A stretch of DNA of 64,000 nt from an uncultured virus (IMG/VR IMGVR_UViG_3300020137_000030) (lineage: Duplodnaviria; Heunggongvirae; Uroviricota; Caudoviricetes): IMG/VR virus record IMGVR_UViG_3300020137_000030; one strand, 5' to 3'. Numbering within the stretch: the stretch's first letter is position 1; each line of letters opens with the position of its first letter. The notes below the pieces were generated by a model, which ran no database searches, had not been told where the DNA came from, and saw only the letters and a program-made list of their open reading frames with translations. Made by a program: the position numbers and the translations under genes. This document shows, in pieces, positions 34,989 to 62,187 of the stretch.

Positions 34989-37030
34989 CAGGCGTCCACC
35001 TCCTGCCTGGCCGTGGCCGTCGCGTCGTGGGTCTGCACTGGCGGGTCGCCGAACGGGCTGGCCGGTGATGCCTTGCGGCGGTAGGAGTCCAGCACCGACG
35101 TCGGGACGACCTCGAGCCTGGAACCCGGCCGTGCGGCGCGCAGGACCGCGGCAGCGTCCGGGTCGACCTGGGTCGCCCAGATCTCGACGACCTGCCCCTG
35201 CGGGAGTCGGTCGAGGACCGCTTCGACCGTGGCTCGCCCGGCCAGGCCGTCGATGATCACGTACCGGGTGCGGCCCTTGGCCCCGGCGAATGCACCGTCA
35301 GGCTCGTAGCGCACACCGAGCTGGGCGCACATGGCCCTGGCCAGGTCTCCCCGGGTGGCCCAGTCTGCGAGCAGGATCATGCCGGCGTGCTCGACGAACA
35401 TCGAGGCCATGACCTCCAGGTGGCGGAACCCGCCGCCCCCGTGCCACGTGGTGGTCGTGACGTCCCGCGTCTTCGTCGCAGCCCTCAGCGCCTTCACTAC
35501 GCCCGCGGTGGCGGGTGAGTCGTCGAGCGCCCTGACAGCCTTGCTGAGCAGCCGGTTGAACTCTTGCGCCTGCGCGGCGGTCATGGCGTCGGGGAGCGCC
35601 TCGACGTCGGCGACGCGCTCGGTGACGGTGGTGACGCCACCAGGGTCCTGGCCGCGCACGACCCGAGCGAGCCGCGGCTTGGTGAACGTCTCGACCGTCT
35701 CGGCGAGCAGCTCGCTGGTGACCCAGCGTCGCCCCATCTTGTGCGCGACGGCGGCAGTGGTCCCAGAGCCGGCGAAGCAGTCGAGCACGATGTCGCCGGG
35801 GTCTGTGGCGATGTGGATGATGCGGTGCAGCAGCTCTTCCGGCTTGGGGGTCGCGAAGGCGTGCGTGTCGGGGAACAGGTCACGGACCTGGTTCTTGCCG
35901 CGCAACGAGCCGCCGACCTCCGACGCGACCCACCACGTCTCCGGCACGCGCCCGTCGTCGACGAGGTACTTCTTGCGCTGCACCCGTTCCTTCTCGATGT
36001 CGAGGAACACCAGGTCGGGCCAGTGCCCGGCGGCGTGGCGGGCGCGCGCAGACCTGGCGGCGTCCTCGAGCGGCTGCGCGAGCATGATCGCGGGGACGCC
36101 GGCCTTCACGTCCTGCACGGTGGTGCCGCAGATCAGGGCGCGCCGGGCGGCGTCGCCGATGTCGCGCAGCTCGTACCGGGCGTACTCGTTGAGCTGGTCC
36201 AGGAACCACGACTGAGCCTTGCCCCACGTGCGGCCCGGTGTCGGGTACATGAGCCCACCGGTGACCGGGTGCTGGATGGCGTAGACCATCGGGTGGTTGG
36301 TCGCGGCCTTGCCTGCGGTCGCGTCGCCGTCACGCCACGGGACCGGGTCGCCGTCACGGGACCTGTACCGGGACGTGTTCGACGAGGCCAGGCGCGGCAT
36401 CCGGTTCGGCACCCACCGCTGCGACCTGCGGTACACGAGCAGCACGTCGTGGGAGACGGAGATGCCGGTGGTGTCGTTGCGCGGGGAGGTCACCTTCTGC
36501 CAGGCGATCTCCGCGACGAAGTTCTCCGCACCGAACTCCTCGTCGAGGACGAGGCGGCAGCGGTGCACCTCAACGTCGTCGAGGTGGACCCACACGGAGC
36601 CGTCGTCGCTCAGCAGCGGCTTGATCTGGCGCAGCCGGTCGCGAAGCATGGTGAGCCAGATCGAGTGCGTGATGTTGTCCTCGTAGCTCGTGCACGCCTG
36701 GCCGGTGTTGAACGGAGGGTCGATGTAGACGAGCTTGACCTTGCCGAGGTACTGCTGCGCGTACTCGGGGAGGCCAGCCAGGGCGTCGAGGACGTGCATG
36801 GCGTCACCGGTGATGAGCAGGTTGTCGCCGGTCGGTGCTGGCAGGTCGGCAGGTCGTCCGGCGGGCGTCGGCGCAATGACCTCGTCCACCTCGCGCAGCA
36901 GGCGGACCTCGGAGACCCGGTAGTCGGACGGGTCGACGAACGTGTAGTCGTAGCGTCCGTCCCCGGTGGACAGCAGCGCCTTGTCCTTGTCGGTCCAGGT
37001 GAGCTCGAGCCGCCCCTGGTGCTGCGCCAT
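34988..37030 (-). CDS. mod: Type III R-M Mod subunit (N6-adenine methyltransferase)
   Basis: YIDPPFNTG, FATPKPE, DCFAGSGTT; coupled to res. Confidence 0.9.
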   Translation of the reverse strand: MAQHQGRLELTWTDKDKALLSTGDGRYDYTFVDPSDYRVSEVRLLREVDEVIAPTPAGRPADLPAPTGDNLLITGDAMHVLDALAGLPEYAQQYLGKVKLVYIDPPFNTGQACTSYEDNITHSIWLTMLRDRLRQIKPLLSDDGSVWVHLDDVEVHRCRLVLDEEFGAENFVAEIAWQKVTSPRNDTTGISVSHDVLLVYRRSQRWVPNRMPRLASSNTSRYRSRDGDPVPWRDGDATAGKAATNHPMVYAIQHPVTGGLMYPTPGRTWGKAQSWFLDQLNEYARYELRDIGDAARRALICGTTVQDVKAGVPAIMLAQPLEDAARSARARHAAGHWPDLVFLDIEKERVQRKKYLVDDGRVPETWWVASEVGGSLRGKNQVRDLFPDTHAFATPKPEELLHRIIHIATDPGDIVLDCFAGSGTTAAVAHKMGRRWVTSELLAETVETFTKPRLARVVRGQDPGGVTTVTERVADVEALPDAMTAAQAQEFNRLLSKAVRALDDSPATAGVVKALRAATKTRDVTTTTWHGGGGFRHLEVMASMFVEHAGMILLADWATRGDLARAMCAQLGVRYEPDGAFAGAKGRTRYVIIDGLAGRATVEAVLDRLPQGQVVEIWATQVDPDAAAVLRAARPGSRLEVVPTSVLDSYRRKASPASPFGDPPVQTHDATATARQEVDA

Positions 37031-37258
37031 TGCCCGGTACCTGCCCATCTGCGCCCACGGCGCACGCCTCGACTGTGCGGGACCGCGCGGCGGACCCTGT
37101 CTCACCCTATGCGTGGACGGTGCCCGTCAGCGGCAGGCAGCGGCGGCACGAGCCCTGTGGACCCGTCCGGGTGAACTTGCCGTAGACGGGTCGGCGGCGG
37201 GGCGTTGCCGCACATGTAGGGGCGACACCAGCACCGACGACCACCCCAGGAGCACCCC

Positions 37259-37639
37259 ATGGGTACCACCAGCGGCCTGCGCGGCATCCCCACCGACCCA
37301 CCCCGCGAACAGATCCCCACCGCCCTCACCGACGCGGCCCACCCCGCCCCACCCACGGTCGGTGCGGTGCACGTCCTCACCTTCGACGGCGTCGACCTCG
37401 CGTGCGCGCGCATCGAGAACGTCACCCCCGACTTCGTGACCGTCCGCCCCTGCTGGGCCACCGGCGCGGGCGACGACGGTCGGGTCGGGCTCGCGGTCCT
37501 CGACGCCACGGTCGCGGTCCTGACCGACGTGATCGGCGGGCGCGTCGACGAGTCCGCGTACGTCGTGGAGCAGGTCGCCACCACCCTGCGCGCACCGCTG
37601 TGGAGCGTGTGGAGCGGGCTGAACCTCCGGTTCGACTAG
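37259..37639 (+). CDS. Hypothetical protein
   Basis: AGGAG RBS; CCGCACAT upstream at 37208. Confidence 0.55.
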   Translation: MGTTSGLRGIPTDPPREQIPTALTDAAHPAPPTVGAVHVLTFDGVDLACARIENVTPDFVTVRPCWATGAGDDGRVGLAVLDATVAVLTDVIGGRVDESAYVVEQVATTLRAPLWSVWSGLNLRFD

Positions 37640-37681
37640 ACCCCGCGCCGGGAACGGGCAGGTGCCGCACATAGGTAGGCT

Positions 37682-37842
37682 GCAAGGTGACCACGGGTCA
37701 CCGACACGTAGTCCGGAATGCCGTACAGGTGCAACCGCCGCCCCGTCAGGGGCGGGAGGTGCCCTACCCGGACACCCTCAACACACGCGTGAAAGTGAAG
37801 GCGAAACGCGACCGCCGGCGGCGAAGCCGCAGGTCAGGAAGT
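37682..37842 (+). ncRNA. tracrRNA-like scaffold/leader, copy 1 (abuts array 1)
   Basis: Near-identical in 4 copies; multiple hairpins; anti-repeat segments GCCGT, CCCTC, CGCGTG, GTG, GGCG. Confidence 0.7.
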
Positions 37843-38236
37843 GTCCCGCCCACGCACGCGAGGGAACGGCACTGCCCCAACTACCCGGGCGAGTGGGATG
37901 GGGGTCCCGCCCACGCACGCGAGGGAACGGCAAGGAGGAGCTCGTCGAGCAGGCCGCAGCCAAGGTCCCGCCCACGCACGCGAGGGAACGGCGGTCTCGG
38001 TGCCCGCAGTAGCCCAGCGTGCGCTGTCCCGCCCACGCACGCGAGGGAACGGCGAGCAGAACCGCGAGAAGATTGACGCCGCCCTCGTCCCGCCCACGCA
38101 CGCGAGGGAACGGCATGGCTACGCGCATCCTGGAGCAGGCAGCTGGGGTCCCGCCCACGCACGCAAGGGAACGGCCCGGCGTCAGCGACGAGGTGAAGCT
38201 CAGCGGTGGTCCCGCCCACGCGGGCGAGGCGGAGTG
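37843..38236 (+). CRISPR. CRISPR array 1: 6 repeats plus a degenerate trailer, 6 spacers of 33 nt
   Basis: GTCCCGCCCACGCACGCGAGGGAACGGC at 37843, 37904, 37965, 38026, 38087, 38148; degenerate copy at 38209. Confidence 0.95.
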
Positions 38237-38466
38237 GAGGCATGCGCGATGAGGGACGATGGCGACCCGCCCCGCCACGCTGGCGAGGCGACGGAACACC
38301 CACGAGAACCCCGGCACAGCGCAGGCAGCGTGGGCTCGATCCGCCTCGCGCCCGAGGTGACCGCTCGCCTCGAGGCGGAGCGCCGTGAGCTCGCGGCCAT
38401 CGAGTCGCCCCTCAGGCTGCGCCGCCGGCGACGGTAGGCGCGGGGCAGGACCCCGCAGCCCGCGGA

Positions 38467-38480
38467 TCCGGCGCATGTTG
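38467..38480 (+). promoter_or_regulatory. TCCGGCGCATGTTG motif, copy 3
   Basis: Immediately upstream of GTG 38487. Confidence 0.55.
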
Positions 38481-38486
38481 GAGGGT

Positions 38487-40001
38487 GTGAGCACCCCGAC
38501 GCCCCCACCGCCACCGCCACCGCCGCAGCGACGCCGCGCCTCCGCGCCGACGCCCGACGCCGGCAAGGCCAAGAGCGACCCGGGCGAGAAGGACCCCACG
38601 GGCGCCCCCAAGCGCAGCCGCGACGCCACCGCTCGCGCTGCGGCTGGCGTCTCCACCGCTGCGGGGCTGGCCGGCAAGGCAGGGCTGGGGCGTGTCGCGA
38701 GCGCCGCCTCCACGCTCGCCGACCCGAACGCCACCGCCGGGCAGAAGGCCACCGAGGCCGCAGCGGCCGGTGCTGAGGCCGCCGTCACGGCTGTTGTCGG
38801 TGCTGCCGCCACACCGCTCGCCGGGAAGGTCGCCGGGGCGGTCGTCGGCACCGGCCTGCGCAACAAGAAGGTCCGCAACCTCCTCGTCGCGCTGCTCATG
38901 GTGCCGCTGCTCGGGATCGGGATGCTCGTGCTCGGCACGGCCCTGCTCACGCAGCAGGTCGGTGCCCTGGTCGCCGCAGCGGCCGGTGAGGAAGAGGAGC
39001 AGGGCGGGGGAGCCGGGGGCGGTGCGGTGCCCGACGGGTACTGCTACGCGCCGGGGCCCGGCAACGAGGCCGTCCTGACCCTCACGCAGGAGCAGTCCAC
39101 CAACGCCCGCGCCATCGTCGCCGCCGTCTCGGCCCGCGACCTGGGCGCCCGAGACGCCGTCATCGCGGTGATGACCGCCCTGACGGAGAGCTCACTGATC
39201 AACGTCGCCTACGGTGACGAGGTCGGCCCGGACTCGCGCGGCCTGTTCCAGCAGCGCGACAGCTGGGGCACCCTCGAGGAGCGGATGGACCCGAGCACCG
39301 CGACGGGCCTGTTCCTGGACGCGATGCTGTCGCCGAACCTGCAGGTGTTCGGGTCGGCCCGCAAGATCAACACCTCCGAGTCCTCACGCGGCACGTTCGA
39401 GCCGTGGATGGTCGCCCAGTCCGTGCAGCGTTCCGCGTTCTCCGACGGGTCGAACTACCAGGGTCACTACTCGCAGGCCGTCGGCATCGTGCGCACCCTG
39501 CTCGGCGACGCTGCGGCGTCCGTGGTGGACCCGTGGATGCCGTCCAGCGAGGACGACCCGGAGTTCTCCGCCGGGGCGTGCTCACCCGGTGAGGGTGCCG
39601 AGCTCCCTCCGTCGGAGCGTGCCGCCGCGGCGATCGCGTTCGCGAAGGCGCAGGTCGGCAAGTCGTACGTGTGGGGTGCGGCGGGCCCGAACACGTTCGA
39701 CTGCTCGGGGCTGACGATGCGCGCCTACGAGGCGGCCGGGGTGAACATCACACGCACCACCCGCACCCAGTACGCGTGGGCGGTGAAGAACGCCCGGGTC
39801 GTCGACCTGGCCGATGCCCAGCCGGGCGACCTGATCTACTACACGTCCGACCCGACCAAGACGGACATCCAGGCGATCTACCACGTGGCCATGTACCTGG
39901 GTGACGACACGATCGTCCACGCACCCAAGCCTGGTGACGTCGTCAAGATCGCCCCGATCTACAACAAGCCGGCGCTGATGCCGCTTGCCGTGCGCCCCTG
40001 A
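38487..40001 (+). CDS. NlpC/P60 peptidoglycan hydrolase with lysozyme-like domain (conjugative VirB1/CwlT-like)
   Basis: TM helix; ESSL...DSRGLFQQR..WG; YVWGA.GP..FDCSGL; HVAMY. Confidence 0.85.
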   Translation: MSTPTPPPPPPPPQRRRASAPTPDAGKAKSDPGEKDPTGAPKRSRDATARAAAGVSTAAGLAGKAGLGRVASAASTLADPNATAGQKATEAAAAGAEAAVTAVVGAAATPLAGKVAGAVVGTGLRNKKVRNLLVALLMVPLLGIGMLVLGTALLTQQVGALVAAAAGEEEEQGGGAGGGAVPDGYCYAPGPGNEAVLTLTQEQSTNARAIVAAVSARDLGARDAVIAVMTALTESSLINVAYGDEVGPDSRGLFQQRDSWGTLEERMDPSTATGLFLDAMLSPNLQVFGSARKINTSESSRGTFEPWMVAQSVQRSAFSDGSNYQGHYSQAVGIVRTLLGDAAASVVDPWMPSSEDDPEFSAGACSPGEGAELPPSERAAAAIAFAKAQVGKSYVWGAAGPNTFDCSGLTMRAYEAAGVNITRTTRTQYAWAVKNARVVDLADAQPGDLIYYTSDPTKTDIQAIYHVAMYLGDDTIVHAPKPGDVVKIAPIYNKPALMPLAVRP

Positions 40002-40016
40002 GAGGAACCCAGCCTG

Positions 40017-40670
40017 ATGCGTACCGCCCGAACCGCCTTCGCCGTCGCCGCGGTTGTGGCTGCCACCGTGATGCTGGCGGGCTGCACCCACAGCGACGAC
40101 CCGCAGACCGAACCGACGGGCTCGTCGGTCGTCGTGCCCGGCTCGCCTGTCGACCCCGACCAGCAGACCCCGCGGGCCACCACGGCGCCGTCGTCGGCTG
40201 AACCGTCCGAGACGGCGACGACGCGCCCGCCCGTCGGGTACGCCGACGACCGGTACCGGGTCTCCACCCCCGGCCAGACCATGCCCGACCCGCCCGTGTC
40301 GGCCGACGGGACGTTCCGCTACCACGGTGAGCAGTGGCCGGTCGACGGCGTCGACACCTGGCAGGCGACCACGTCCGCGTTCGTCGCCGCAGCGGCCGAC
40401 CCCGACAGCGACCTCGACGCCTGGTTGGCGGGCCTGCGCCCGTACGTGACCGACCGGCTCCTGGACCGTCTCGCCCGAGACGACGCCCGCCCCGAGATCG
40501 CCTCCTGGGGGACGCCGAAGGTCGCCGGTGTCGAGCTGCTCGATGGCGACGTCGGCGTGCAGGTCGCCCAGGTCGACGCGGGGTCAAGCCGTTGGTCGCA
40601 GGTCGTGACGCTGTGGTTCTTCGACGACGGGACGTGGCGTGTCGACACGTGCGGGCTGTCCTGGAACTAG
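40017..40670 (+). CDS. Lipoprotein
   Basis: Lipobox LAGC. Confidence 0.7.
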   Translation: MRTARTAFAVAAVVAATVMLAGCTHSDDPQTEPTGSSVVVPGSPVDPDQQTPRATTAPSSAEPSETATTRPPVGYADDRYRVSTPGQTMPDPPVSADGTFRYHGEQWPVDGVDTWQATTSAFVAAAADPDSDLDAWLAGLRPYVTDRLLDRLARDDARPEIASWGTPKVAGVELLDGDVGVQVAQVDAGSSRWSQVVTLWFFDDGTWRVDTCGLSWN

Positions 40671-40698
40671 AAACCGGGCACTGCCGCACATACACCTT

Positions 40699-40857
40699 GC
40701 AGGTGACCACGGGTCACCGACATGTAGTCCGGAATGCCGTACAGGTGCAACCGCCGCCCTCCGGGGGCGGGAGGTGCCCTACCCGGACACCCTCAACACA
40801 CGCGTGAAAGTGAAGGCGAAACGCGACCGCCGGTGGCGAAGCCGCAGGTCAGGAAGT
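40699..40857 (+). ncRNA. tracrRNA-like scaffold/leader, copy 2
   Basis: Same sequence as copy 1 with a few changes, mostly in hairpin tips; CCGCACAT at 40684. Confidence 0.7.
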
Positions 40858-41501
40858 GTCTCGCCCACGCACACGAGGGGACGGCCCACCCCCTCTCTCA
40901 CTCGATCTGGACGAGAGTGTCTCGCCCACGCACACGAGGGGACGGCCGACGTCCTGTGGGTGCGCCGCGACGTCGACCGGTCTCGCCCACGCACACGAGG
41001 GGACGGCCAGCCCCGCGACGATGACGCCGATGACGCCGGCGTCTCGCCCACGCACACGAGGGGACGGCGTCGTCGCCACCCCGAAGGGTGTCCCGCCGTG
41101 CGTCTCGCCCACGCACACGAGGGGACGGCGTCAACGGGCGCGGGCGCACGCGCCGCCTCAACGTCTCGCCCACGCACACGAGGGGACGGCGTTGTAGGGC
41201 TCCGCCGCCGAACGCCCCGCACCGTCTCGCCCACGCACACGAGGGGACGGCGGCCGTCTACGCCGAGGTCGGCCGCCGCAAGGCGTCTCGCTCACGCACG
41301 CGAGGGAACGGCTGGGTGCTCGCGCGCGAGCTCGGGCACCTCCTGGTCCCGCCCACGCACGCGAGGGAACGGCCAACAGCTGGCCGTAGCGGCGAACGCG
41401 CCCGCCGTCCCGCCCACGCACACGCACACGAGGGGACGGCGTCCCCTGACGGCATCGACGCCACCACCGCGGAGTCTCGCCCACGCACACGAGGGGGCGT
41501 C
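40858..41501 (+). CRISPR. CRISPR array 2: 11 repeats, 10 spacers
   Basis: GTCTCGCCCACGCACACGAGGGGACGGC with 61-nt period; repeats 8-9 approach the array-1 type; repeat 10 has a 6-nt duplication. Confidence 0.95.
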
Positions 41502-41613
41502 CAGTCCGGCGGCGCAATCGTCCAGGCCCCAAGCAGCCTTGCACCACAGGCGCGGGGCTCGTCGGGCCGTGCCGCACATACACACGACGACAGCACCGAC
41601 AACGGGAGGCGAC

Positions 41614-44085
41614 GTGCACGAGCTGCGCGACTACCAGGCCGAGATCGTCCGCGACACCGTCAAGCACCTGCGCCGCAACACGCGCGCCCAGGTTCGGATG
41701 GCATGTGGGTCCGGCAAGACGCTCGTCGGCATGCGCATCCTCGAGACCCTCGTGCGCGGACGCGACCGCAGCGTCATCGTCCTGGGCTTCCCCAACCTCG
41801 CACTGCTCTCACAGACGCTGCACTACTGGCGCGAGCAGAGCACCTGGCGCACGGCTCTCGGCCGGCGGGCGTACGCGGACATCGTCGTGGGTTCCGACGT
41901 CGCCACCGGCGAGCCCGACGAGGCGGGAGACGTCGACGTCGACAGCCCGCACGACTCCCTCGCCGAGCTGGGCCTCGTCGGGCACGACATCACCATCACC
42001 ACGAGCCCGCACGCACTGGCAGACCTGATCTCCACCACACCCGGCCGGGTGGTGATCTTCTCCACCTACCAGTCCATGTCGGCTGTGGCTGCCGCAGCGC
42101 GGATGCTGCGAGAGCGCGGCGACGGCACGTTCCGCTACGACGCCGTCCTGGCAGACGAGGCGCATCGCACGGCCGGTGACGCCACGACCGACGCTTTCGC
42201 GGACGTCGTCCTCCCGCGCGCGATGCCGGTGGCCAAGCGACTGTTCATGACGGCGACCCCGCGCCACGTCGTCAGTCGACGCCGTGCGCCCGGGGTGCGG
42301 AGCATGGACAACGAGGGCCAGTACGGCAAGGTCACCGGCGACTTCCCGATGCGACGCGGAATCGACGTGGGGGTCCTGTCCGACTACCAGGTGAACGTCC
42401 TCGGCGTGAACCTCGAGGAGCTCGAGGCGGTCACCGGCGTGACCGTCCAGGTGCCCGACGGCACCGCCGGGGCGCGCTGGCTGCGTGAGAGCGCCACGGG
42501 GCGCCGGGCACACCTGGACACCGTCGCGGTCGCGGTCGCCAAGCTGGCGGCGTTCCACGGTCGCAGCCGGATCATGGTGTTCCACTCGCGCATCGACCGC
42601 TCGCGCGAGTTCATCGAGCGGCTTCAGCAGGTCGTCGCACGGATGCCGGCGCTCGCCTCGCGGCCCGTGCTGCCGGTGCACGTCGATGGCAACACCTCCG
42701 CCGACGACCGCCGCGACGTCCTGCAGCGGATGAACAACCTCGACCTCGACAAGGGGGAGTGGGCCGTCGTCTCCAACGTCGGCGTGTTCGTCGAGGGCGT
42801 CGACGTGCCGCTTCTCGACGCCGTCGTGCTGGCTGAGCCGCGTCGCTCGCCGGTCGACGTCACGCAGATCGTGGGGCGGGCACTGCGCCTGCCGCACCAC
42901 TCCCAGCGCAGCTACCACCGACCTGCAGCGATCATGGTTCCGGTGCTCGTCCTGCCCGGCCAGCACGTGGCCAGCGCGCTGCACACCGGGTCCTTCGCCA
43001 TCACCGCCGAGCTGATCCGCGTGCTGCGCATCGACGACAGCACGATCACGGACAAGTTCGTCCCCGCGATCGCACCCCGCCAGCGTCATCGAGCAAAGGC
43101 TCGCCGCAGCGAGGACGGCACGGTCTCGTTCGTGCTGGACGGCGGTCTGGTCGAGTACATCCCTGTCCCGAGCGCACAGGTGGACGCGCTCGCTCCCACC
43201 GAGTCGCAGGAGCAGGCAGTGCCTGCTGAGCGCCGCCACCCTTCGACGGGCTCGACGGCCGGCCCCATGGGGCAGGAGGACGCGGGTCGATCGCACGACG
43301 ACCCGGCTTCTGCCCCCACCACCGATCCGCCACAGACGCCCGACGTGCCCTCCCAGCCGCAGCACCCCGTCATCCTCATCGAGGAGGCGGGCGCACGCGG
43401 CGTCCTGAACGACCCGCCGCAGCCTCGCCCGCGCCAGCGTCCGAAGGTGAACCGCGTCTACTACCGGACCAGCGAGCTGGACTCCGACGGGCTCGGCTGG
43501 GTCCTGGCACTGGAGGACACGCCCACGGACCAGCGTGTTCTCGTCGACAGCGACGACCTGCGCCTGGACTCGCTGCTGCGCTCGGTGACGGTCACGGCAG
43601 CCGAGATCGCGGTGGAGCCGGACGCCCTGGTCGCGACGCGCATCGCGGAGTTCTTGAGCGTCCGGCTGCGCTGGCCCCAGGCGAAGGCTGACGACCCCGC
43701 CGAGGCGCAGTGGGGGCGTCGCCTGCGCTCGTGGCAGAAGGCTGCTGCCGACGGGGACGCGTACGGCCTGCCCGACGGCGGGACCGCCCTTCTGGACCGG
43801 ATCATCCCGGGGTGGCGTGACCTGGCGGGCACGCAGGCGCGCGAGCACCTGTTCCATCAGTCGGTCCTGACGGCCCGCGACTTCATCGCCGCGAACGGGC
43901 GCGACCCGGACCCCCGTTCGAGCGACACGGTCGAGCGCAACAGCGCGCGGTTCCTCATCCAGCAGCGCGAGTACGCGGCCAGGCCGGCAGCGCGTCGGGC
44001 TGTGCTGCTTCCGCCGGAGCGGGTCGCCATGCTGGACGAGGCGATCCCCGGGTGGAACGACAGGAAGCGCCGCAAGGCGCACTGA
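41614..44085 (+). CDS. SF2 DEAD/DEAH helicase with C-terminal helicase-associated (HA)-like repeats
   Basis: LRDYQ, ACGSGKT, DEAHR, MTATP, EGVDVP, QIVGRALR; two repeats ending LD..IPGW; GGGAGG RBS. Confidence 0.88.
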   Translation: MHELRDYQAEIVRDTVKHLRRNTRAQVRMACGSGKTLVGMRILETLVRGRDRSVIVLGFPNLALLSQTLHYWREQSTWRTALGRRAYADIVVGSDVATGEPDEAGDVDVDSPHDSLAELGLVGHDITITTSPHALADLISTTPGRVVIFSTYQSMSAVAAAARMLRERGDGTFRYDAVLADEAHRTAGDATTDAFADVVLPRAMPVAKRLFMTATPRHVVSRRRAPGVRSMDNEGQYGKVTGDFPMRRGIDVGVLSDYQVNVLGVNLEELEAVTGVTVQVPDGTAGARWLRESATGRRAHLDTVAVAVAKLAAFHGRSRIMVFHSRIDRSREFIERLQQVVARMPALASRPVLPVHVDGNTSADDRRDVLQRMNNLDLDKGEWAVVSNVGVFVEGVDVPLLDAVVLAEPRRSPVDVTQIVGRALRLPHHSQRSYHRPAAIMVPVLVLPGQHVASALHTGSFAITAELIRVLRIDDSTITDKFVPAIAPRQRHRAKARRSEDGTVSFVLDGGLVEYIPVPSAQVDALAPTESQEQAVPAERRHPSTGSTAGPMGQEDAGRSHDDPASAPTTDPPQTPDVPSQPQHPVILIEEAGARGVLNDPPQPRPRQRPKVNRVYYRTSELDSDGLGWVLALEDTPTDQRVLVDSDDLRLDSLLRSVTVTAAEIAVEPDALVATRIAEFLSVRLRWPQAKADDPAEAQWGRRLRSWQKAAADGDAYGLPDGGTALLDRIIPGWRDLAGTQAREHLFHQSVLTARDFIAANGRDPDPRSSDTVERNSARFLIQQREYAARPAARRAVLLPPERVAMLDEAIPGWNDRKRRKAH

Positions 44086-44113
44086 GTACGCCACTGCCGC
44101 ACATAGGTAGGCT

Positions 44114-44274
44114 GCAAGGTGACCACGGGTCACCGACACGTAGTCCGGAATGCCGTACAGGTGCAACCGCCGCCCCGCCAGGGGCGGGAGGTGCCCTACC
44201 CGGACACCCTCAACACACGCGTGAAAGTGAAGGCGAAACGCGACCGCCGGTGGTGAATCCGCAGGTCAGGAAGT
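44114..44274 (+). ncRNA. tracrRNA-like scaffold/leader, copy 3
   Basis: 161 nt, near-identical to copy 1; CCGCACAT at 44097. Confidence 0.7.
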
Positions 44275-44607
44275 GTTCCGCCCACGCACGCGAGGGAACG
44301 GCGGAGCCCGTCGCTGGCGCAGAACACCTGCGAGCGTTCCGCCCACGCACGCGAGGGAACGGCGGAGGCCACGATGATCCGCAACGCCCTCCACTCGTCC
44401 CGCCCACGCACGCGAGGGAACGGCGCAGGCGACGGGGGTTTTTCTCGGTGCGCTCGCGTCCCGCCCACGCACGCGAGGGAACGGCGCTCAGCGCGGTCGG
44501 GACGGTGGGGCCGCGGACGTCCCGCCCACGCACGCGAGGGAACGGCTAGGTCCTGCACGGTCGCGCCCATGCCGCCGTGGTCTCTCCCACGCACTCGAGG
44601 GAACGTC
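44275..44607 (+). CRISPR. CRISPR array 3: 6 repeats, 5 spacers (possible remnant repeat at ~44648-44680)
   Basis: Repeats at 44275, 44336, 44397, 44458, 44519, 44580. Confidence 0.95.
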
Positions 44608-44737
44608 CCCATCTGCCGCGGCACCGCCGGCACGGGCAAGCGCTGACGTCTCGCCGACCGCACATACGAGGGGGTCGGCCGACAGGTCGCGCAGGTGCTG
44701 CGGCGAGAAACCAGCGCCTGCCGCACATACCACCTGC

Positions 44738-47700
44738 ATGGACAAGACCGCCCTCGAGCCCACCCGCACCTACCACGCGACCGTCGACCTGGGCGAGAAC
44801 ACCGAAGCGTTCCTCGCGCACCACGTCGCCACCAACAACGCTGCTGGCGAGCTCGCCGGCGCGCTCAAGCACATGATCGCCACGCTCGTCCCCGCGCAGT
44901 GGGTCGAGCTCTGGGAGAACCACGCGGGCACCCCCGCCGGTGTGCGCATCGCCTCGTGGATCGCAGGATCGTGGGTCGGCACGGAGCGGTCAGACAGCGC
45001 CCCGCCGCGCACGGTCACCCACGCGCAGGCCATCGACGCCGTCCGCCGCCGCGCGGTGGAGCTGCGCCCCGGCATCGACGCCGAGCAGTTCCTCAAGGAC
45101 GCTGCCATCCTGCACGGCACCGTCCGCGACGACGCCGTGTGGGTCGACTACCTCGACGGCGACCCCGTACCCGCGATCGGGTGGGAGGGGCTCGACGTGC
45201 GGCTGCTCGGCAGCGCGAGCGAGCCGGTCAAGAGCAACGACGAGATCACCAAGCCCGGCAAGGGCGACATGGTCCAGAGCTGCTCGCGCCTGTGGGGCCG
45301 TGCAGTCGGCACCGGGCGCAAGGCGGACGGGCTCCTTCTCGTCGAGCGCAGCGCGGCGCTTCGGGACGCCGCTGCCGACCCCACGAACCGCACGGTCGCA
45401 GACGTCGCCCAGGCACTCACCGGGCAGCCGCTCGACGGCGCAGGCCTGGCCGCCTGGGCCAACCACACCAACCCGAAGTCACCCACGAAGGTCACGGCAG
45501 CCCTCGTCGGGAACGACGCCTCCGCTGACCTGTCGACCGAAGTCGCAGGCAAGACTCTCCGCGACCGGATCGTCACCGGCGCCAGCGAGGTCCACGCCAA
45601 CTGGGTCGCGCGCACCGGCGAGGCACGTCGCGCCGCCGACGGTGAGATCCTGGCTGGCACCTGGCTGCACGGCATCCTGCTGCGCCACATGGCCGCCAAC
45701 CTGACCGGCGGGGCGCGCACCAATGTCCTGTCCGCGGCGGCGAGCACCGTGGCGACCCACCGCGACCGCCTCCACAAGCAGGCCGTCGAGCTCGCCGCGC
45801 TGCAGCAGTCGCTCGCCAACGCGCTCGAGCAGGTCGACCCCGACGACCTGGCAGACCTGGACGCATGGGCACGGGCGCACCTGTACGAGAACGAGGACTC
45901 GCCCGGGTACCTCCTGCCGCGCATCCCGCGCCGCGAGGGCACCGCGAAGCTCGCGACCGTCACCAACAAGTGGCGCAACAAGCCCAAGATGGGCGTCGAG
46001 GAGCGCGTCGCCGCCGCCAAGGGGGCCGGGGCGGGCTGGACCGTCTGGTGGGACTACCTGGCCCGCAACGAGCACCTGTGGAACCCGAACACCGACCGGC
46101 TCCTGCGAGTCGTCGGCGGCGGCGACGGGTTCGCTGGTGTCCAGCCGCTGCGACGCAAGATTGCGGGAGTCCAGATGCCGACGTTCGCGCGGCCGCACCC
46201 GCAGGCCGCACCCGCCCCTTCCTACTACGGCGGTGGACGCCTGACCGGTCGGCTCGGCGCCGACGGCACGCTGGTGCTGCAGGTCGCCACCCCCGACGGA
46301 CTGGCGCGCATCAGCGCCCGGTGGATGTCGACCCGTCTGCGTGAGGCGCTCAAGGTCGGTGCGCAGGTGGTCGACGGTCAGCCGACGATCACGCGCGACG
46401 ACCCCACGTCGCGGCTGGCGGCCGGGGTCGACCAGGACACGCCGGTGAACGTCGCCGCAGACCCGACCAGCAGCACCTTCACCGTCGGGTACGACCGCGA
46501 GAACCAGCGCTGGCTCCTGGCCGTCGCGATCAAGCACCACACCCCTCGCCGCTACCTGCCTGGCGACCCCCTGCGGCTCATGGGCGTGCAGATCGGCATG
46601 AACCGGCACGACGTGACGTACGCCGTGTGGGAGACGGTCGACGGCGTCAGCGCACCCCAGGACGTCGAGGTCGCGGACGTCCACGCCGTCAACGCCCGTG
46701 GCCAGGCCACCGTACGCCGTGCCCGCCGCGTGGCCGCCACGGGGAACCTGTTCGAGTTCGCGCGGCCCGTGCGCGAGGGCAGCATCGACCTGCCCGCGGG
46801 CGACCGCGAGTCTCAGGTCGGCGAGTCGGCGCAGATCGCGGAGCTGCTGGACGACCTGCCAGTCCACGACGCCTACATCCAGGGAGAGCTCCGGCGTGTC
46901 GCACGCGACGCTGCCGTGGACCTGGGGGCGGGAACGCCGCGCTCGCAGCTGCTCCAGGCGGCGATGCGTGTGCTGAACAGGGCGTTGGACGCCCAGGGCT
47001 GCCTGGCCCGCCTGGCCGGCCAGGCACGCGGACTGGGCGAGGCAGGGCCCGACGACCTTGAGGAGCTGGAGAGCATCTGGCCCGCCACGGGCGGGGACCT
47101 GGGCGCGCTGTGGTCGCAGCGTGCCGCCACTATCGCCCGGTACGCGCGCATCGTCCGCGACGACCTCCTGACCCGCGCCCACAGCCGCCGGGTCAGCGTC
47201 GAGCGCGTCGTCGAGCTGGACGAGTTCGCACGCCTGCTCCGGCGCCTGGAGACCTGCCCGACGCCGTCACGCCCGTTCGAGCACCGCACCCTGCCGTTCG
47301 GCTTCGCCCCCACGATCCGCACCATGCGCAACCGCGCGCGGGAGGCCTGGACGGACAAGATCGCCTCGGACACCGTCAAGACGGCCCTGCGGCTCGGGGT
47401 GAGCGTCATCGCGGTGTACAAGGACGAGGACTCCACCCCCTCGCAGGTGCGTCCCGCCCACATCAACCGGCGTCTGGCCACCGAGGCGCGCCGTGCGATC
47501 GCCGACCAGATCGCCCTGGTGGCGCCGCTGCACGGCATCGAGGTCAAGGTCGTCAGCAAGGGCGTCGGCCACCGGGCGCGAGTCGTCGACGGGCGTGAGA
47601 TGTTCGCGGTCACGCCCATCACCCTGGGGGAGTTCGCCGACCTGGCCCGACGCGACACGAAGGGCGCCAAGGGGGCCATCGCGAGCTGGGACAACCGGGT

Positions 47701-48109
47701 CGTCGCCGCCGCGAACCTGCTCGCTGGCAAGGAGAAGAAGCGCAAGGGCAGGGACGGCAGGGTCTACGAGGAGAGCGCACAGCGGAAGGCCGCAAACCTC
47801 GCGGTCGCAGCCCTGACTGTCCAGGCCGGGCAGTTCCTGGACCGTGAGCTCGAGCCGGTCCTGGGCCTGAACGACCGAGCCTTCCGCACCTGGAGGTCGA
47901 GCGCAGCCGCCAGCCAGACGCTCCACCTGCCGGGCCTGTTCCCCGACGGGCAGGTGCTCGTGCCCGCCGACGCGCAGTACGAGCCGGGGACTCTCCGGTT
48001 CCGTTCCGTCAGCAGTCGCGACATCGCCATCGCCCACGCCGTCGCCCACCGAGGGTGCACCTGGGTGCTCAACCCCAAGAAGCAGAAGAAGGACGACGAG
48101 TCCGAGTAG
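44738..48109 (+). CDS. Cas12b(C2c1)-like type V effector, predicted nuclease-inactive (1123 aa)
   Basis: Flanked by arrays; size and motif order like Cas12b: PTFARPHP, RWMSTRL; RuvC-I LRLMGVQIG (D>Q618); RuvC-II VIAVY (E>Y894); INRRL..LHGIEVKVV; RuvC-III SRDIAIA (D1095). Confidence 0.72.
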   Translation: MDKTALEPTRTYHATVDLGENTEAFLAHHVATNNAAGELAGALKHMIATLVPAQWVELWENHAGTPAGVRIASWIAGSWVGTERSDSAPPRTVTHAQAIDAVRRRAVELRPGIDAEQFLKDAAILHGTVRDDAVWVDYLDGDPVPAIGWEGLDVRLLGSASEPVKSNDEITKPGKGDMVQSCSRLWGRAVGTGRKADGLLLVERSAALRDAAADPTNRTVADVAQALTGQPLDGAGLAAWANHTNPKSPTKVTAALVGNDASADLSTEVAGKTLRDRIVTGASEVHANWVARTGEARRAADGEILAGTWLHGILLRHMAANLTGGARTNVLSAAASTVATHRDRLHKQAVELAALQQSLANALEQVDPDDLADLDAWARAHLYENEDSPGYLLPRIPRREGTAKLATVTNKWRNKPKMGVEERVAAAKGAGAGWTVWWDYLARNEHLWNPNTDRLLRVVGGGDGFAGVQPLRRKIAGVQMPTFARPHPQAAPAPSYYGGGRLTGRLGADGTLVLQVATPDGLARISARWMSTRLREALKVGAQVVDGQPTITRDDPTSRLAAGVDQDTPVNVAADPTSSTFTVGYDRENQRWLLAVAIKHHTPRRYLPGDPLRLMGVQIGMNRHDVTYAVWETVDGVSAPQDVEVADVHAVNARGQATVRRARRVAATGNLFEFARPVREGSIDLPAGDRESQVGESAQIAELLDDLPVHDAYIQGELRRVARDAAVDLGAGTPRSQLLQAAMRVLNRALDAQGCLARLAGQARGLGEAGPDDLEELESIWPATGGDLGALWSQRAATIARYARIVRDDLLTRAHSRRVSVERVVELDEFARLLRRLETCPTPSRPFEHRTLPFGFAPTIRTMRNRAREAWTDKIASDTVKTALRLGVSVIAVYKDEDSTPSQVRPAHINRRLATEARRAIADQIALVAPLHGIEVKVVSKGVGHRARVVDGREMFAVTPITLGEFADLARRDTKGAKGAIASWDNRVVAAANLLAGKEKKRKGRDGRVYEESAQRKAANLAVAALTVQAGQFLDRELEPVLGLNDRAFRTWRSSAAASQTLHLPGLFPDGQVLVPADAQYEPGTLRFRSVSSRDIAIAHAVAHRGCTWVLNPKKQKKDDESE

Positions 48110-48164: not shown

Positions 48165-48325
48165 GCAAGGTGACCACGGGTCACCGACACGTAGTCCGGA
48201 ATGCCGTACAGGTGCAACCGCCGCCCCGCCAGGGGCGGGAGGTGCCCTACCCGGACACCCTCAACACACGCGTGAAAGTGAAGGCGAAACGCGACCGCCA
48301 GCGGCAAAACCGCAGGTCAGGAAGT
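48165..48325 (+). ncRNA. tracrRNA-like scaffold/leader, copy 4
   Basis: 161 nt, near-identical; CCGCACAT at 48148. Confidence 0.7.
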
Positions 48326-48881
48326 GTTCCGCCCACGCACGCGAGGGAACGGCGTCACATCGAAGTCCGGCACAGCCCCGCATCAGGTTCCGCCCACGCA
48401 CGCGAGGGAACGGCTCTGGGCCTGGCCCTCGTGGCCGTCGTGGCCGAGTTCCGCCCACGCACGCGAGGGAACGGCGAAGAGCGGCGTCTTGAAGATTCGA
48501 GGCCTGCGGTCCCGCCCACGCACGCGAGGGAACGGCGCGAACCGGGTGCGGATGACCCGCACCCGTGACGTCCCGCCCACGCACGCGAGGGAACGGCTCG
48601 GGGCAGTCTGGGAGGCGCGACGACGCGTGGAAGTCTCTCCCACGCACGCGAGGGAACGGCCACCTGTACGCGTGGGCGGAGGAGGCTGTCACCGTCTCTC
48701 CCACGCACGCGAGGGAACGGCGAGGTCGTCATGGAGTCCTTCGCGTCCGTCGTCGTCCCGCCCACGCACGCGAGGGAACGGCACGGTGGCCACGGGGACC
48801 TGGGTCCCGCCCACGCACACGAGGGAACGGCTCCAGTGGGCGCCGTGCCCTCGGTGCCACACGGGCCTCGCCCACGCGTCC
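48326..48881 (+). CRISPR. CRISPR array 4: 9 repeats plus a truncated trailer, 9 spacers (one 35 nt, one 21 nt)
   Basis: Repeats at 48326, 48387, 48448, 48509, 48570, 48633, 48694, 48755, 48804; partial at 48865. Confidence 0.95.
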
Positions 48882-49813
48882 TAGGGGACATCCATCCCTA
48901 GCCAGGCGGCGGACGCCGCGCGGAACGTGTCGTACTCCAACTGTTCACCGTCGAACTCCTGGTGCCCGGCGCTCAGCTCGACCAGCAGGCGCGGCCCGGC
49001 CAGCGCCTCGAAGATCGCGAACTGCCCGACGGGCGGCACGGCAGGGTCGACCCGCGCCGCCCCCACCAGGACCGGCGCCCGGACGCGGGCTGCCGCGGTG
49101 GCGGCGTCGAACCAGGCGAGCACGCCCGCGACCGACGGGTCACGCTGCGCGAGCAGGCGCACAGCCTCGCCGCTGCCGGTGCAAGGCGTGCGCAGCCGAG
49201 CCGGGTGGTTGCCGAATGTCGGGACCTTCAGCACCGCGGCGGTCACCCGCCGCTCCTGGGCAAGGGCGAGGGCTGCGAGCCCGCCGCCGAAGCTGACGCC
49301 GTGGATGTCGATGCGGCGCAGGTCAGGGTACAGGGCGTGGGCGGCTGAGACCGCGGCCCACACGCCTTGGACGCACCCGCCGATGATGTACGTCTCGCGC
49401 GAGGCGATGCCGTGCAGGACGTGCTCGGCCACGACGTCGGGCACGTCCGGCTGGACGCTCAGCGGTGCCATGCCGCGCGGGACGAGGGTCAGCTCGGCGG
49501 TGCCGGGGGAGCGCCACGGGTCGAACGGTCCGTCGACCTGGCCGTAGCCGGGAAGGTCGACGACGACACGGTCGACACCGTCGGGCGGCTCGTGCACGTA
49601 GGCGCCAACCTCGACGCCGCCCGCGCTGGTCAGCCGCAGCTCGCTCAAGGTCCACCCGCCGCCGTCGCCGGTGCGCCGCACCCTGCGGGGTGCGGGGTCC
49701 ACGTCCAGCGCCTGGGCGTACCTGCCGGCCCAGAACGCGTCGAAGTCGTCGGGCCCGGTCAGCACCTGGTCGGTGAGCTCGCCGCGCACGCTGGCGATGG
49801 CTGTCGCGTCCAT
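48881..49813 (-). CDS. Acetylxylan esterase (AXE1/CE7-like alpha/beta hydrolase)
   Basis: PDDFDAFW; nucleophile elbow GVSFGGG; DPAVPP..QFA; GH. Confidence 0.8.
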   Translation of the reverse strand: MDATAIASVRGELTDQVLTGPDDFDAFWAGRYAQALDVDPAPRRVRRTGDGGGWTLSELRLTSAGGVEVGAYVHEPPDGVDRVVVDLPGYGQVDGPFDPWRSPGTAELTLVPRGMAPLSVQPDVPDVVAEHVLHGIASRETYIIGGCVQGVWAAVSAAHALYPDLRRIDIHGVSFGGGLAALALAQERRVTAAVLKVPTFGNHPARLRTPCTGSGEAVRLLAQRDPSVAGVLAWFDAATAAARVRAPVLVGAARVDPAVPPVGQFAIFEALAGPRLLVELSAGHQEFDGEQLEYDTFRAASAAWLGMDVP

Positions 49814-51429: not shown

Positions 51430-51440
51430 CGCAGCACCGA

Positions 51441-59765: not shown

Positions 59766-60617
59766 TCAGGCGGGTCGCACGGACTCGACCGGGGCCCGCA
59801 CGAGCCTCCCACGGTCGCGCAGGTGGACCACCACACTGGTGCGCCCGACCCTGGTGACCGGCCCCGACTCGCCGTCGTACTCGTGGCCGGGCAGGTCGAT
59901 CGTGACGGTGTCGCCCACCTTGAGCGTGACCGTCGCCTTCGGTTCCGGGTGGCGGGCGACGGCGGCAGCGACCTGCGGGTCGACGACGTTGCGGGTCCAC
60001 TCGAAGCGCCGCTCGTCGGGGGCCTGGTCGCGCGGGTGGTCTCGGTGCCCGCAGTAGCCCAGCGTGCGCTTGCGCGGCGACGGCATCCGACCCTGCGTGA
60101 CGGTGTGCCCCGACGGGCAGGTCCCCACGACCGCCGCGGTCTGGACGGTGACGTCCTGGTCGAGCCGGACCGTGGCTGTCGGGTCGGCCCCGAGACGCAG
60201 CGCGGTCGCCTGCCAGCGTGACCCGTGCCCGTCGTGCGGGCCGCACAACGCGTGGGCGACCTCGTGCAGGACCGTGTCGAGCCGCTCGGCGCCGTCCACC
60301 GCGGCCATCTTCGGCCCGGACAGGACGATCAGCCGCCGGGCGTGGTGGGTGGACCCCAGCCGGGACCCGAGCTTGGACGTGTACGCGAGCGTCCAGTCGT
60401 GCAGTCCGTGCTCGTCCATCGTCTTGCGCGCCTGCACGTACAGGGCGTCGAGCAGGTCTCCGGGTGCGACGTGCGGGTCGTCGGCGTACGGGTCGACGGC
60501 GGGTGGTTGCGCCTCGAGCGTGACGGCGGGCTCGTCGCGCGCCTTCGTGACGAACTGGCCTGCCCCGGCCCCGGGGGCACGGTTGCGCGGGTGGGCGGAC
60601 TCGACGAACGTTGCCAT
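59766..60617 (-). CDS. SprT-like zinc metalloprotease with N-terminal GQF peptide
   Basis: LHEVAHAL...GHG..W; ATG 9 nt after minus-strand CCGCACAT; target of array-1 spacer 3. Confidence 0.8.
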   Translation of the reverse strand: MATFVESAHPRNRAPGAGAGQFVTKARDEPAVTLEAQPPAVDPYADDPHVAPGDLLDALYVQARKTMDEHGLHDWTLAYTSKLGSRLGSTHHARRLIVLSGPKMAAVDGAERLDTVLHEVAHALCGPHDGHGSRWQATALRLGADPTATVRLDQDVTVQTAAVVGTCPSGHTVTQGRMPSPRKRTLGYCGHRDHPRDQAPDERRFEWTRNVVDPQVAAAVARHPEPKATVTLKVGDTVTIDLPGHEYDGESGPVTRVGRTSVVVHLRDRGRLVRAPVESVRPA

Positions 60618-62011: not shown

Positions 62012-62159
62012 GTCCCGCCCATGCGGGCGAGGGGACGGCCGCACACTAGGCGGCACGAGCAGCAGCGCCCCCGTCCCGCCCACGCGGGCGAGGGGACGGC
62101 GTCAGGGCGCGGTAGGTGGCGGTGCACGCCTGGGTCCCGCCCACGCGGCACGGGACGGG
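62012..62159 (+). CRISPR. Orphan mini-array 5: 3 repeats (last degenerate), 2 spacers, no tracr-like leader
   Basis: GTCCCGCCCAYGCGGGCGAGGGGACGGC at 62012 and 62073; degenerate at 62134; 61-nt period. Confidence 0.85.
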
Positions 62160-62187
62160 ACACCGGGGCGCCGCACATAGGTGCCGC

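What the first reader, a model, noticed from the sequence alone, without database searches (positions are those of the whole stretch)
37682..37870. The repeated leader is a tracrRNA-like scaffold fused in cis to the first repeat (natural sgRNA-array), in four copies
Seen: copies at 37682, 40699, 44114 and 48165 end exactly at repeat 1. The repeat's reverse complement GCCGTT-CCCTC-GCGTG-C-GTG-GGCG-GGAC reappears in pieces as GCCGT (37720) and CCCTC-aacacac-GCGTG-aaa-GTG-aa-GGCG-aaac (37775-37807). Other elements: 5' hairpin GGTGACC/GGTCACC; a TCCGG/CCGGA stem enclosing AATGCCGTAC plus a CCGCCCC/GGGGCGG hairpin; and a GACC..GGTC hairpin linking to the repeat. Differences between copies cluster at hairpin tips. 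Known: the Cas12b tracrRNA uses a short loop segment pairing with the repeat 3' end plus a longer anti-repeat. Inference: each transcript self-assembles a single guide with the newest spacer, and A-rich bulges may prevent RNase III cleavage.
Basis: partly seen in the sequence, partly recalled or inferred. Interest (0 to 1): 0.88.

Follow-up and report, generated by a model that had tools for sequence, protein, structure and literature searches.

The report
tracrRNA grafted onto four CRISPR leaders
A large mobile DNA element of a high-GC bacterium carries a CRISPR protein that has probably lost its ability to cut, plus four guide-RNA cassettes in which the helper RNA scaffold sits directly in front of the CRISPR array, so each transcript could fold into a ready-made single guide for the newest target.

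Summary
The four repeated leaders are real and are tracrRNA genes. Each is a chimera. The 5' ~100 nt have the Cas12b tracrRNA layout: stem 1, then stem 2 enclosing a 5-nt anti-repeat and stem 3, then a second anti-repeat. The 3' ~55 nt are an ordinary actinobacterial type I-E leader. The partner is the 1,123-aa ORF at 44738-48109, a distant Cas12b with RuvC-I Asp and RuvC-II Glu replaced. One related locus (35% protein identity) keeps the same fold with different letters: 6 of 7 stem-1 pairs are changed on both sides, and both repeat changes inside the anti-repeat duplex are compensated. An element-specific promoter motif places the inferred start 1-4 nt before stem 1, and no terminator was found before repeat 1. 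Whether the RNA stays uncut as a natural single guide is not shown; the only RNA run behaved like DNA. Likely role: cut-free, RNA-guided blocking of competing elements. It is a new variant of type V-B, possibly the barely described Cas12b3.

The parts
37664..37672 (+). Element-specific promoter motif GCCGCACAT in front of cassette 1 (also 40683, 44096, 48147 for cassettes 2-4 and 44720 for the effector); inferred start of transcription at +10
   Evidence: 25 sites in the window against 0.85 expected; 12 of 25 have ATG/GTG at exactly +10, P 4e-13. Promoter function is inferred.
37682..37779 (+). Cassette 1 tracrRNA core: stem 1 (37686-37702); stem 2 (37711-37716 with 37768-37773); anti-repeat AR2 GCCGT (37720-37724, pairs repeat -5..-1); stem 3 (37727-37765); anti-repeat AR1 CCCTC (37775-37779, pairs repeat -11..-7)
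   Evidence: Fold, covariation with L001, topology as described for ChCas12b
37780..37842 (+). Type I-E leader segment (GAAAGT near -52, A-run near -40, CAGGTC..AGT at -13..-1), also able to pair loosely with the 5' half of repeat 1
   Evidence: 13 of 18 positions conserved among 12 Cas2-selected Streptomyces I-E leaders are matched; BLAST hits at I-E leader-repeat junctions
37843..38236 (+). Array 1: 28-nt I-E-like repeats, 33-nt spacers, 7 repeats (last degenerate), 6 spacers; spacer 3 (37993-38025) targets the element itself
40701..40857 (+). Cassette 2 scaffold (tracr core plus I-E leader)
40858..41501 (+). Array 2: 11 repeats, 10 spacers; the first 7 repeats share a variant sequence
41614..44085 (+). 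Superfamily 2 helicase-like gene between cassettes 2 and 3; link to the system not shown
   Evidence: Pfam ResIII E 1.8e-15, Helicase_C E 9.6e-10
44114..44274 (+). Cassette 3 scaffold
44275..44607 (+). Array 3: 6 repeats, 5 spacers, followed by a decayed repeat near 44648
44738..48109 (+). 1,123-aa Cas12b-like effector, RuvC-I Asp to Gln618, RuvC-II Glu to Tyr894, RuvC-III Asp1095 kept; predicted nuclease-dead
   Evidence: Foldseek best hit ChCas12b E 4.5e-24; PADLOC Cas12b E 4.5e-4; alignment
48165..48325 (+). Cassette 4 scaffold
48326..48892 (+). Array 4: 10 repeats (last degenerate), 9 spacers
60038..60070 (+). Perfect 33/33 protospacer of array 1 spacer 3, inside the element's own SprT-like gene (59766-60617, minus strand)
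62012..62161 (+). Fifth array, 3 repeats, no tracr scaffold and no I-E leader end; repeats keep the last 11 nt compatible with AR1/AR2

Best explanation
Each of the four elements is a tracrRNA-leader-array cassette for the neighbouring nuclease-dead Cas12b. (1) An element-specific promoter starts one RNA 1-4 nt before stem 1 and runs through the array (inferred). (2) The 5' 100 nt fold into a Cas12b tracr core whose two short anti-repeats grip the last 11-12 nt of a repeat, preferentially repeat 1 because it is on the same molecule (structure supported by covariation; preference inferred). (3) The dead Cas12b binds this RNA and sits on matching DNA without cutting, blocking transcription or replication of competing phages or plasmids (loss of catalytic residues shown; blocking inferred from other dead Cas12s). 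(4) At DNA level the 3' 55 nt act as a type I-E leader, so an I-E Cas1-Cas2 supplied from elsewhere adds new 33-nt spacers right behind the scaffold (motifs and polarity shown; enzyme inferred). The repeats have lost the I-E hairpin, so they are probably no longer Cas6e substrates. Whether the loop between AR1 and repeat 1 is later nicked is open; I put 'stays joined' at about even odds.
For: Covariation with L001 (protein 35% identical): stem 1 has 7 bp and a 3-nt loop in both, with 6 of 7 pairs changed on both sides; 5 of 6 stem-2 pairs are changed on both sides in the model alignment. The repeat differs at -10 and -7 inside AR1 and both are compensated (T-A to G-C, C-G to T-A), while AR2 is identical at 5 of 5. 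A model built only from window copies ranks the L001 scaffold first in 64 kb of 21 loci (19.2 bits, E 0.036, next 16.4). The order of elements equals the ChCas12b sgRNA description. Effector: top Foldseek hits are Cas12b, and the relative P0006 (E 6.8e-15 to the query) passes the NCBIfam Cas12b cut-off (190.8 vs 150). The 5 homologs lacking the RuvC-I Asp form one side of a branch at 100/99. L001 has the same cassette-effector-cassette layout. Promoter. No plus-strand terminator-like site in 37400-49200. I-E leader. New repeat variants sit at the leader end of arrays 2-4, and no two of 33 spacers share a 12-mer. Repeat hairpin is -5.5 to -8.1 kcal/mol in arrays 1-4 against -12.8 to -15.0 in 6 I-E repeats. 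A perfect self-target is retained.
Against: There is no expression evidence: the one metatranscriptome that holds the region shows flat cover and 139-kb records, as DNA would. Covariation rests on two lineages only, and the model E-value is modest. The free duplex energy is not above shuffles, and the pairing gain for L001 is not significant (42 of 200). The query itself scores 11.9 bits against a Cas12b cut-off of 150, and its model is weak in the C-terminal part (mean pLDDT 64). No cas1/cas2 was found among 51 ORFs scanned, and the rest of the 248-kb contig could not be examined. The terminator scan needs a U-run and would miss actinobacterial terminators without one.
Confidence: 0.8

Rival explanations
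1. Joint precursor, conventional dual guide. The scaffold is a tracrRNA, but host nucleases cut the precursor, and free tracr then serves any repeat in trans, as in V-K. The four copies would be simple duplications of promoter plus array that carry the tracr along. This differs from the best explanation only in the last step.
For: A joint tracr-array precursor with a separate mature tracrRNA is reported for V-K (PMC12416283, passages). Arrays hold 5-10 spacers but one scaffold each. The fifth array has no scaffold yet keeps AR-compatible repeat ends. The extra cis pairing is positioned differently in L001.
Against: The long near-perfect anti-repeat of a canonical Cas12b locus (24 nt, 88%, followed by a hairpin and 183 nt to repeat 1) is absent. 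In the predicted folds the anti-repeat:repeat pairing runs in helices of about 4-5 bp (window) or 7-9 bp (L001), short for RNase III (recalled requirement). Every leader-bearing array in both loci has its own scaffold (4 of 4 here; 2 of 2 in L001, one cut by the contig end).
Confidence: 0.4
2. Ordinary duplicated I-E leader; the pairings are chance in 72% GC DNA.
For: The 3' 55 nt really are an I-E leader. Duplex energy alone is not significant. Copies are 98% identical in the core, so they give little covariation themselves.
Against: Compensatory changes in stems 1 and 2 and in AR1 against L001; match to Cas12b tracr topology; adjacent Cas12b-like gene; 12 of 12 control I-E leaders lack a significant pairing gain.
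Confidence: 0.05
3. Inhibitory or prioritising leader-repeat hairpin of the II-A / VI-B kind, or a decoy RNA that soaks up a host Cas protein.
For: Leader-repeat hairpins that block the first repeat are described (PMC13187072, passages); phage sgRNA decoys exist for Cas9 (bioRxiv 10.64898/2026.06.01.729453, passages).
Against: Those hairpins occur where guides are spacer-repeat; a Cas12 guide is repeat-spacer, so repeat 1 is needed for the newest spacer. The element encodes its own matching effector, and spacers match co-occurring foreign DNA.
Confidence: 0.07
4. The dead Cas12b is a targeting module for another enzyme (for example the adjacent helicase, or a transposase elsewhere on the contig) rather than a simple roadblock.
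For: An SF2 helicase gene lies between cassettes 2 and 3; L001 has a helicase-associated-domain gene downstream (Pfam HA E 2.2e-6, just under cut-off). Other dead Cas12s were recruited by transposons (PMC11656645, passages).
Against: The L001 gene has no helicase hit; the window helicase tail has no Pfam hit; no Tn7-like genes among 51 ORFs; the neighbourhood is known for only one other locus.
Confidence: 0.15

Closest known systems
Type V-B Cas12b with tracrRNA (AacCas12b, ChCas12b; A. dauci locus L009)
   Same: Effector fold; tracr with three stems and two repeat:anti-repeat duplexes, the short one pairing repeat -5..-1 from inside stem 2; tracr upstream of the array on the same strand.
   Different: RuvC-I and -II replaced; 28-nt I-E-like repeats with 61-nt period instead of 36-nt repeats with ~71-nt period; no long near-perfect anti-repeat; AR1 ends 63 nt before repeat 1 (canonical anti-repeat ends 183 nt before, with a hairpin between); four cassettes; no cas1-cas4/cas2 in the window.
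Variant V-B3, Cas12b3 (Makarova et al. 2025, PMC12669027)
   Same: Inactivated V-B with RuvC-I and RuvC-II substitutions on an actinobacterial conjugative plasmid; blocking of transcription suggested.
   Different: Described with a mini array and a type IV-B locus; no tracrRNA is mentioned in the passages seen. Here arrays have 5-10 spacers and no IV-B genes were found in the window. Sequences could not be compared, so identity with this clade is open.
Cas12n / V-U4 (C. glutamicum plasmid locus L008)
   Same: At sequence level: a structured anti-repeat region directly 5' of the same I-E leader end, I-E-like repeats with a weakened hairpin, and predicted cis pairing with repeat 1.
   Different: Small TnpB-like effector; tracr overlaps the end of the gene; a single cassette in the 3-kb stretch fetched.
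Type V-K (Cas12k)
   Same: Dead RuvC; tracr upstream of the array and transcribed with it as a joint precursor.
   Different: Transposon-linked, cyanobacterial, different tracr; a separate mature tracrRNA was detected.
Sigma-associated dead Cas12f/TnpB with omegaRNA arrays (PMC10691335)
   Same: Inactivated effector, tracr fused to a repeat, whole guide unit duplicated.
   Different: There the array is lost; here each unit keeps a full array and an adaptation leader, and the protein is Cas12b.
Cas12m (V-M) and type IV plasmid systems
   Same: Cut-free interference on mobile elements, inter-element competition.
   Different: Unrelated effectors; no tracrRNA (recalled).

Membership tests
Type V-B (Cas12b) | Effector homologous to Cas12b | tested here: met
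   Foldseek top four hits ChCas12b, E 4.5e-24 to 6.4e-19; linked by phmmer to P0006/P0009/P0010, which pass the NCBIfam Cas12b cut-off. The query alone is far below the cut-off (11.9 vs 150).
Type V-B (Cas12b) | Intact RuvC Asp-Glu-Asp triad | tested here: not met
   Gln618, Tyr894, Asp1095
Type V-B (Cas12b) | tracrRNA with three stems and two repeat:anti-repeat duplexes | tested here: met
   (prediction plus covariation, no probing)
Type V-B (Cas12b) | Own adaptation module (cas1-cas4, cas2) | tested here: not met
   None among 51 ORFs of the window; rest of the contig not available
Type V-B (Cas12b) | T-rich PAM 5' of the protospacer | tested here: inconclusive
   Three 5' flanks seen (AGAA, AGAG, GGGT) are not T-rich; n is 3 and one is a self-target
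V-B3 (Cas12b3) | Substitution of RuvC-I and RuvC-II catalytic residues | tested here: met
V-B3 (Cas12b3) | Sequence membership in the published Cas12b3 alignment | not testable with these tools
   No accession in the text or in 3 searchable supplementary files; figure and data files not visible
V-B3 (Cas12b3) | Mini array and type IV-B neighbour on a conjugative plasmid | tested here: inconclusive
   Arrays have 5-10 spacers; no IV-B hit in the window; an AAA_10 ATPase and an NlpC/P60 gene suggest conjugation; replicon type not settled
Type I-E array | 61-nt period and I-E leader motifs | tested here: met
Type I-E array | Stable Cas6e hairpin in the repeat | tested here: not met
   A-A mismatch; -5.5 to -8.1 vs -12.8 to -15.0 kcal/mol
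Type I-E system | Cascade and cas3 genes | tested here: not met
   None among 51 ORFs; PADLOC on 10 ORFs gave only a weak Cas3b hit on the helicase
Natural single guide (omegaRNA, vsgRNA) | Scaffold and guide remain one molecule in the effector complex | not testable with these tools
   Only assembled contigs of a DNA-like RNA run were available
Inhibitory leader-repeat hairpin (II-A, VI-B) | Spacer-repeat guide order, extraneous crRNA from repeat 1 | tested here: not met
   Cas12b-type repeat-spacer order follows from AR2 pairing the repeat's 3' end

The most novel reading that the evidence does not exclude
These are adaptive natural single guides. Each cassette makes one uncut RNA in which a Cas12b tracr core, an I-E leader loop, repeat 1 and the newest spacer stay joined, so only the most recent spacer is fully armed. 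The element multiplies cassettes to arm several targets at once. It would be a Cas12b lineage caught half way back to an omegaRNA-like guide while still taking up spacers through a borrowed type I-E integrase, and would be used for cut-free silencing of competitors and perhaps of the element's own genes.
Probability: 0.45. Interest if true: 0.86.

Novelty: new variant of a known kind. Interest (0 to 1): 0.72.

Why it matters
It gives a tracrRNA, a likely spacer-acquisition route and a testable job to a rare, nuclease-dead branch of Cas12b; the passages I saw on Cas12b3 give none of these. It shows one 160-nt sequence doing two jobs, as RNA scaffold for a type V effector and as DNA leader for a type I-E integrase. 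If the RNA stays uncut, it is a natural single guide that updates itself, and it explains why the element keeps four cassettes. It would also supply a natural dCas12b plus guide for gene silencing in high-GC bacteria.

Tried and rejected
No whole genome was held, so cas1/cas2, further cassettes and the replicon type outside the window could not be checked. Rfam: one chance hit only in 37000-50500. Solved-structure sequence search: no real match. More loci were sought and not found: viral contigs by protein and by four repeat or leader patterns; species genomes by protein and by pattern; plasmids by tblastn of P0001 and P0007. Only L001 came back. Three word-index protein searches returned only the query. 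Spacer targets: no convincing hit among the 40 of 480 phage records listed for arrays 2-4; one spacer searched exactly in viral contigs, none; array 1 was not searched against phages. RNA evidence: run X4 covers 28 of 30 bins evenly, and one piece bridges leader, repeat 1 and spacers (37789-38113, depth 8), but its records reach 139 kb, so it is treated as DNA and not used either way. The first control-leader profile was mis-anchored by 2 nt in 7 of 12 rows and was redone. The seven leaders were picked by likeness to the query and were not used as unbiased controls. G as first spacer base (16 of 33) was not taken as a PAM signal. No complex prediction was run. Earlier notes of this scan: three look-ups returned nothing. 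Ten paper searches found no description of a dead Cas12b with a tracr fused to an I-E leader; most subscription papers are outside that library, including the primary Cas12n and TranC papers, which I know only from recall and from citing passages.

Full report
Setting. The window is 71.8% GC and belongs to a contig of up to 248 kb. It carries a WhiB gene, methyltransferases, a type III restriction pair, an AAA_10 ATPase with an intein-like insert, an NlpC/P60 gene and 34 tRNA genes plus a tmRNA. This fits a very large actinobacterial plasmid-like element or jumbo phage. The 21 ORFs scanned against phage families gave no capsid hit; the terminase hits on the ATPase fall on or just before the intein-like stretch, so the replicon type is open. 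Three DNA runs labelled ant metagenome and one RNA run hold the region.

Observation. Four near-identical stretches lead straight into CRISPR arrays at 37843, 40858, 44275 and 48326. Repeats are 28 nt and spacers mostly 33 nt. A fifth array at 62012 lacks the stretch. The fold of 37682-37870 contains stems 1-3 and the leader:repeat pairing (z -3.69, 0 of 200 shuffles). Keeping the repeat and shuffling only the leader, the energy gained by joining them was matched by 3 of 200 shuffles and by 1, 3, 1 and 0 of 60 for the four copies. Twelve I-E leaders chosen by Cas2 similarity (12 of 150 records) showed no significant gain. Against this, the free duplex energy is unremarkable.

The effector. ORF 44738-48109 (1,123 aa) has no Pfam hit but weak Cas12b hits in PADLOC. 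A search of 1.84 billion representatives returned 8 relatives. Three of them pass the NCBIfam Cas12b cut-off and keep the RuvC-I Asp and RuvC-II Glu. The predicted structure (pLDDT 64) matches ChCas12b best (E 4.5e-24). The query has Gln618 and Tyr894 at RuvC-I and -II. It and four relatives lack both residues and form one side of a branch with 100/99 support in a tree of 9 rows (P0008 left out as a fragment, P0010 replaced by its longer cluster member P0017). A Cas12b3 'inactivated type V-B variant' on an Actinomyces conjugative plasmid is named in PMC12669027 (passages, section 9 in full, three supplementary files searched, one unreadable, figures not visible). It may be this clade, but I could not test that.

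The related locus. L001 encodes P0003 (35% identical) between two arrays, each preceded by a shared leader. Its leader differs in sequence but keeps the layout. Stem 1 has 7 bp and a 3-nt loop with 6 of 7 pairs changed on both sides; GCCGTAC is kept inside stem 2; stem 3 follows; the second anti-repeat starts right after stem 2. Aligned on the repeat's 3' end, the two repeats differ at -10, -7 and -6. The changes at -10 and -7 are both compensated in AR1; -6 is paired only in L001. The window AR1 binds its own repeat at -9.6 kcal/mol and the L001 repeat at -2.2; the reverse swap is milder, -13.2 against -9.4. A covariance model made from the four window cores alone ranked L001 3793-3885 first among 21 loci, with all helices aligned (19.2 bits, E 0.036). 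This order (stem 1; stem 2 enclosing a 5-bp duplex with repeat -5..-1 and stem 3; then the other duplex) is the one described for ChCas12b and AacCas12b guides (PMC12204704, passages). Two lineages are thin evidence statistically, but the agreement is at positions fixed in advance by the Cas12b model.

BLAST of the scaffold against plasmids hit mainly its last 20-55 nt, at leader-repeat junctions of actinobacterial arrays (7 of 13 records fetched). In 12 independently chosen I-E leaders, a CAGGTC-like hexamer lies at -13..-8 in 12 of 12, and the consensus shows AAgT near -50 and AAaa near -40; the window matches 13 of 18 well-conserved positions and L001 14 of 18. So the A-rich bulges and the GGTC strand are DNA signals of an I-E leader. 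The pairing to the 5' half of the repeat uses positions -45..-42 here but -29..-23 in L001, and array 2 changed a middle repeat base without compensation, so that part is weakly constrained. The repeats are I-E-like but their hairpin is broken. Leader-proximal repeat variants in arrays 2, 3 and 4, and the absence of shared spacers, show that each cassette has grown on its own at the scaffold end.

Transcription. GCCGCACAT occurs 25 times against 0.85 expected; 12 of 25 have a start codon at exactly +10, including the effector. This points to leaderless transcripts starting at +10, which gives 37682, 40701, 44114 and 48165, 1-4 nt before stem 1. No plus-strand terminator-like site was found in the region. 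One transcript from scaffold through array is therefore likely, but not shown. The RNA run was uninformative.

Targets. Spacer 3 of array 1 matches the element's own SprT-like gene 33/33, and a DNA contig at element depth shows the same match; tolerance fits a non-cutting effector or a wrong PAM. In one search, records at depth 237 to 5,113 (element 11 to 97) carry matches to array 1 spacer 2 (first 3 nt mismatched) and array 4 spacers 2 and 7, two at a time on one record. Only 24 of 192 loose ends were shown. This suggests an abundant co-occurring replicon as target; its nature is unknown.

Comparison. The canonical A. dauci Cas12b locus has a 24-nt, 88% anti-repeat, a strong hairpin and 183 nt before repeat 1; the window has none of that. 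A tracr upstream of and joined to the array is not new in itself. V-K has a joint precursor (PMC12416283, passages). A Cas12n plasmid locus shows the same tracr-in-I-E-leader layout in sequence (bioRxiv 10.64898/2026.03.27.714800, passages). Fusion of tracr and repeat with duplication of the unit is proposed for sigma-linked dead Cas12f (PMC10691335, passages), and phage sgRNAs exist for Cas9 (passages). What I did not find in ten searches is the combination: dead Cas12b, tracr core grafted onto an I-E leader, and several independently adapting cassettes. Supplements of the two preprints were closed and may bear on this.

Verdict. tracrRNA for the adjacent dead Cas12b: about 0.9. One transcript with the array: about 0.85. 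Cut-free blocking as the job: about 0.7. Uncut natural single guide favouring the newest spacer: about 0.45. New variant of type V-B; interest 0.72.

Noticed in passing
window, 25 sites from 2649 to 62170: Element-wide promoter-like motif GCCGCACAT; 12 of 25 sites have a start codon at exactly +10, implying leaderless mRNAs and probably a dedicated sigma factor not seen in the window.
   Followed up: partly
window 50602-56511: Cluster of 34 tRNA genes plus a tmRNA, all on the plus strand.
   Followed up: no
window 7621-11589: 1,322-aa AAA_10 ATPase with a LAGLIDADG/intein-like insert; possible conjugation ATPase.
   Followed up: no
window 41614-44085: SF2 helicase between cassettes 2 and 3; L001 has a helicase-associated-domain gene downstream of its second array.
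   Followed up: partly
window 29921-31695: IS200/IS605 element with TnpA and TnpB.
   Followed up: no
window 32490-37105: Type III restriction-modification pair; three further methyltransferases at 12741, 58812 and 61028.
   Followed up: no
window 62012-62161: Fifth array without scaffold or leader; its repeats resemble the degenerate last repeat of array 1 and form a strong alternative hairpin (-15.6 kcal/mol).
   Followed up: partly
window 41407-41440 and 48783-48803: One repeat with a 6-nt internal duplication and one 21-nt spacer; one 35-nt spacer at 48598.
   Followed up: no
L008 1330-1720: C. glutamicum plasmid Cas12n/V-U4 locus shares the I-E leader end, the weakened repeat core and predicted cis pairing with repeat 1, suggesting convergent borrowing of I-E adaptation by unrelated type V effectors.
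   Followed up: partly
L001 4379-4414 and 5444-5479: 36-nt inverted ends (75% complementary) flanking the helicase-associated-domain gene, resembling IS605-family ends (recalled).
   Followed up: no
L009 3413-6777: The A. dauci plasmid cas12b is annotated as two overlapping ORFs, so it may be frameshifted.
   Followed up: no
window 37800-37816 and the three matching copies, minus strand: The leader segment reads as a terminator-like hairpin plus T-run on the antisense strand in all four copies.
   Followed up: no
window 20683-27303: Two long ORFs (962 and 989 aa) with no Pfam or phage-family hit.
   Followed up: no
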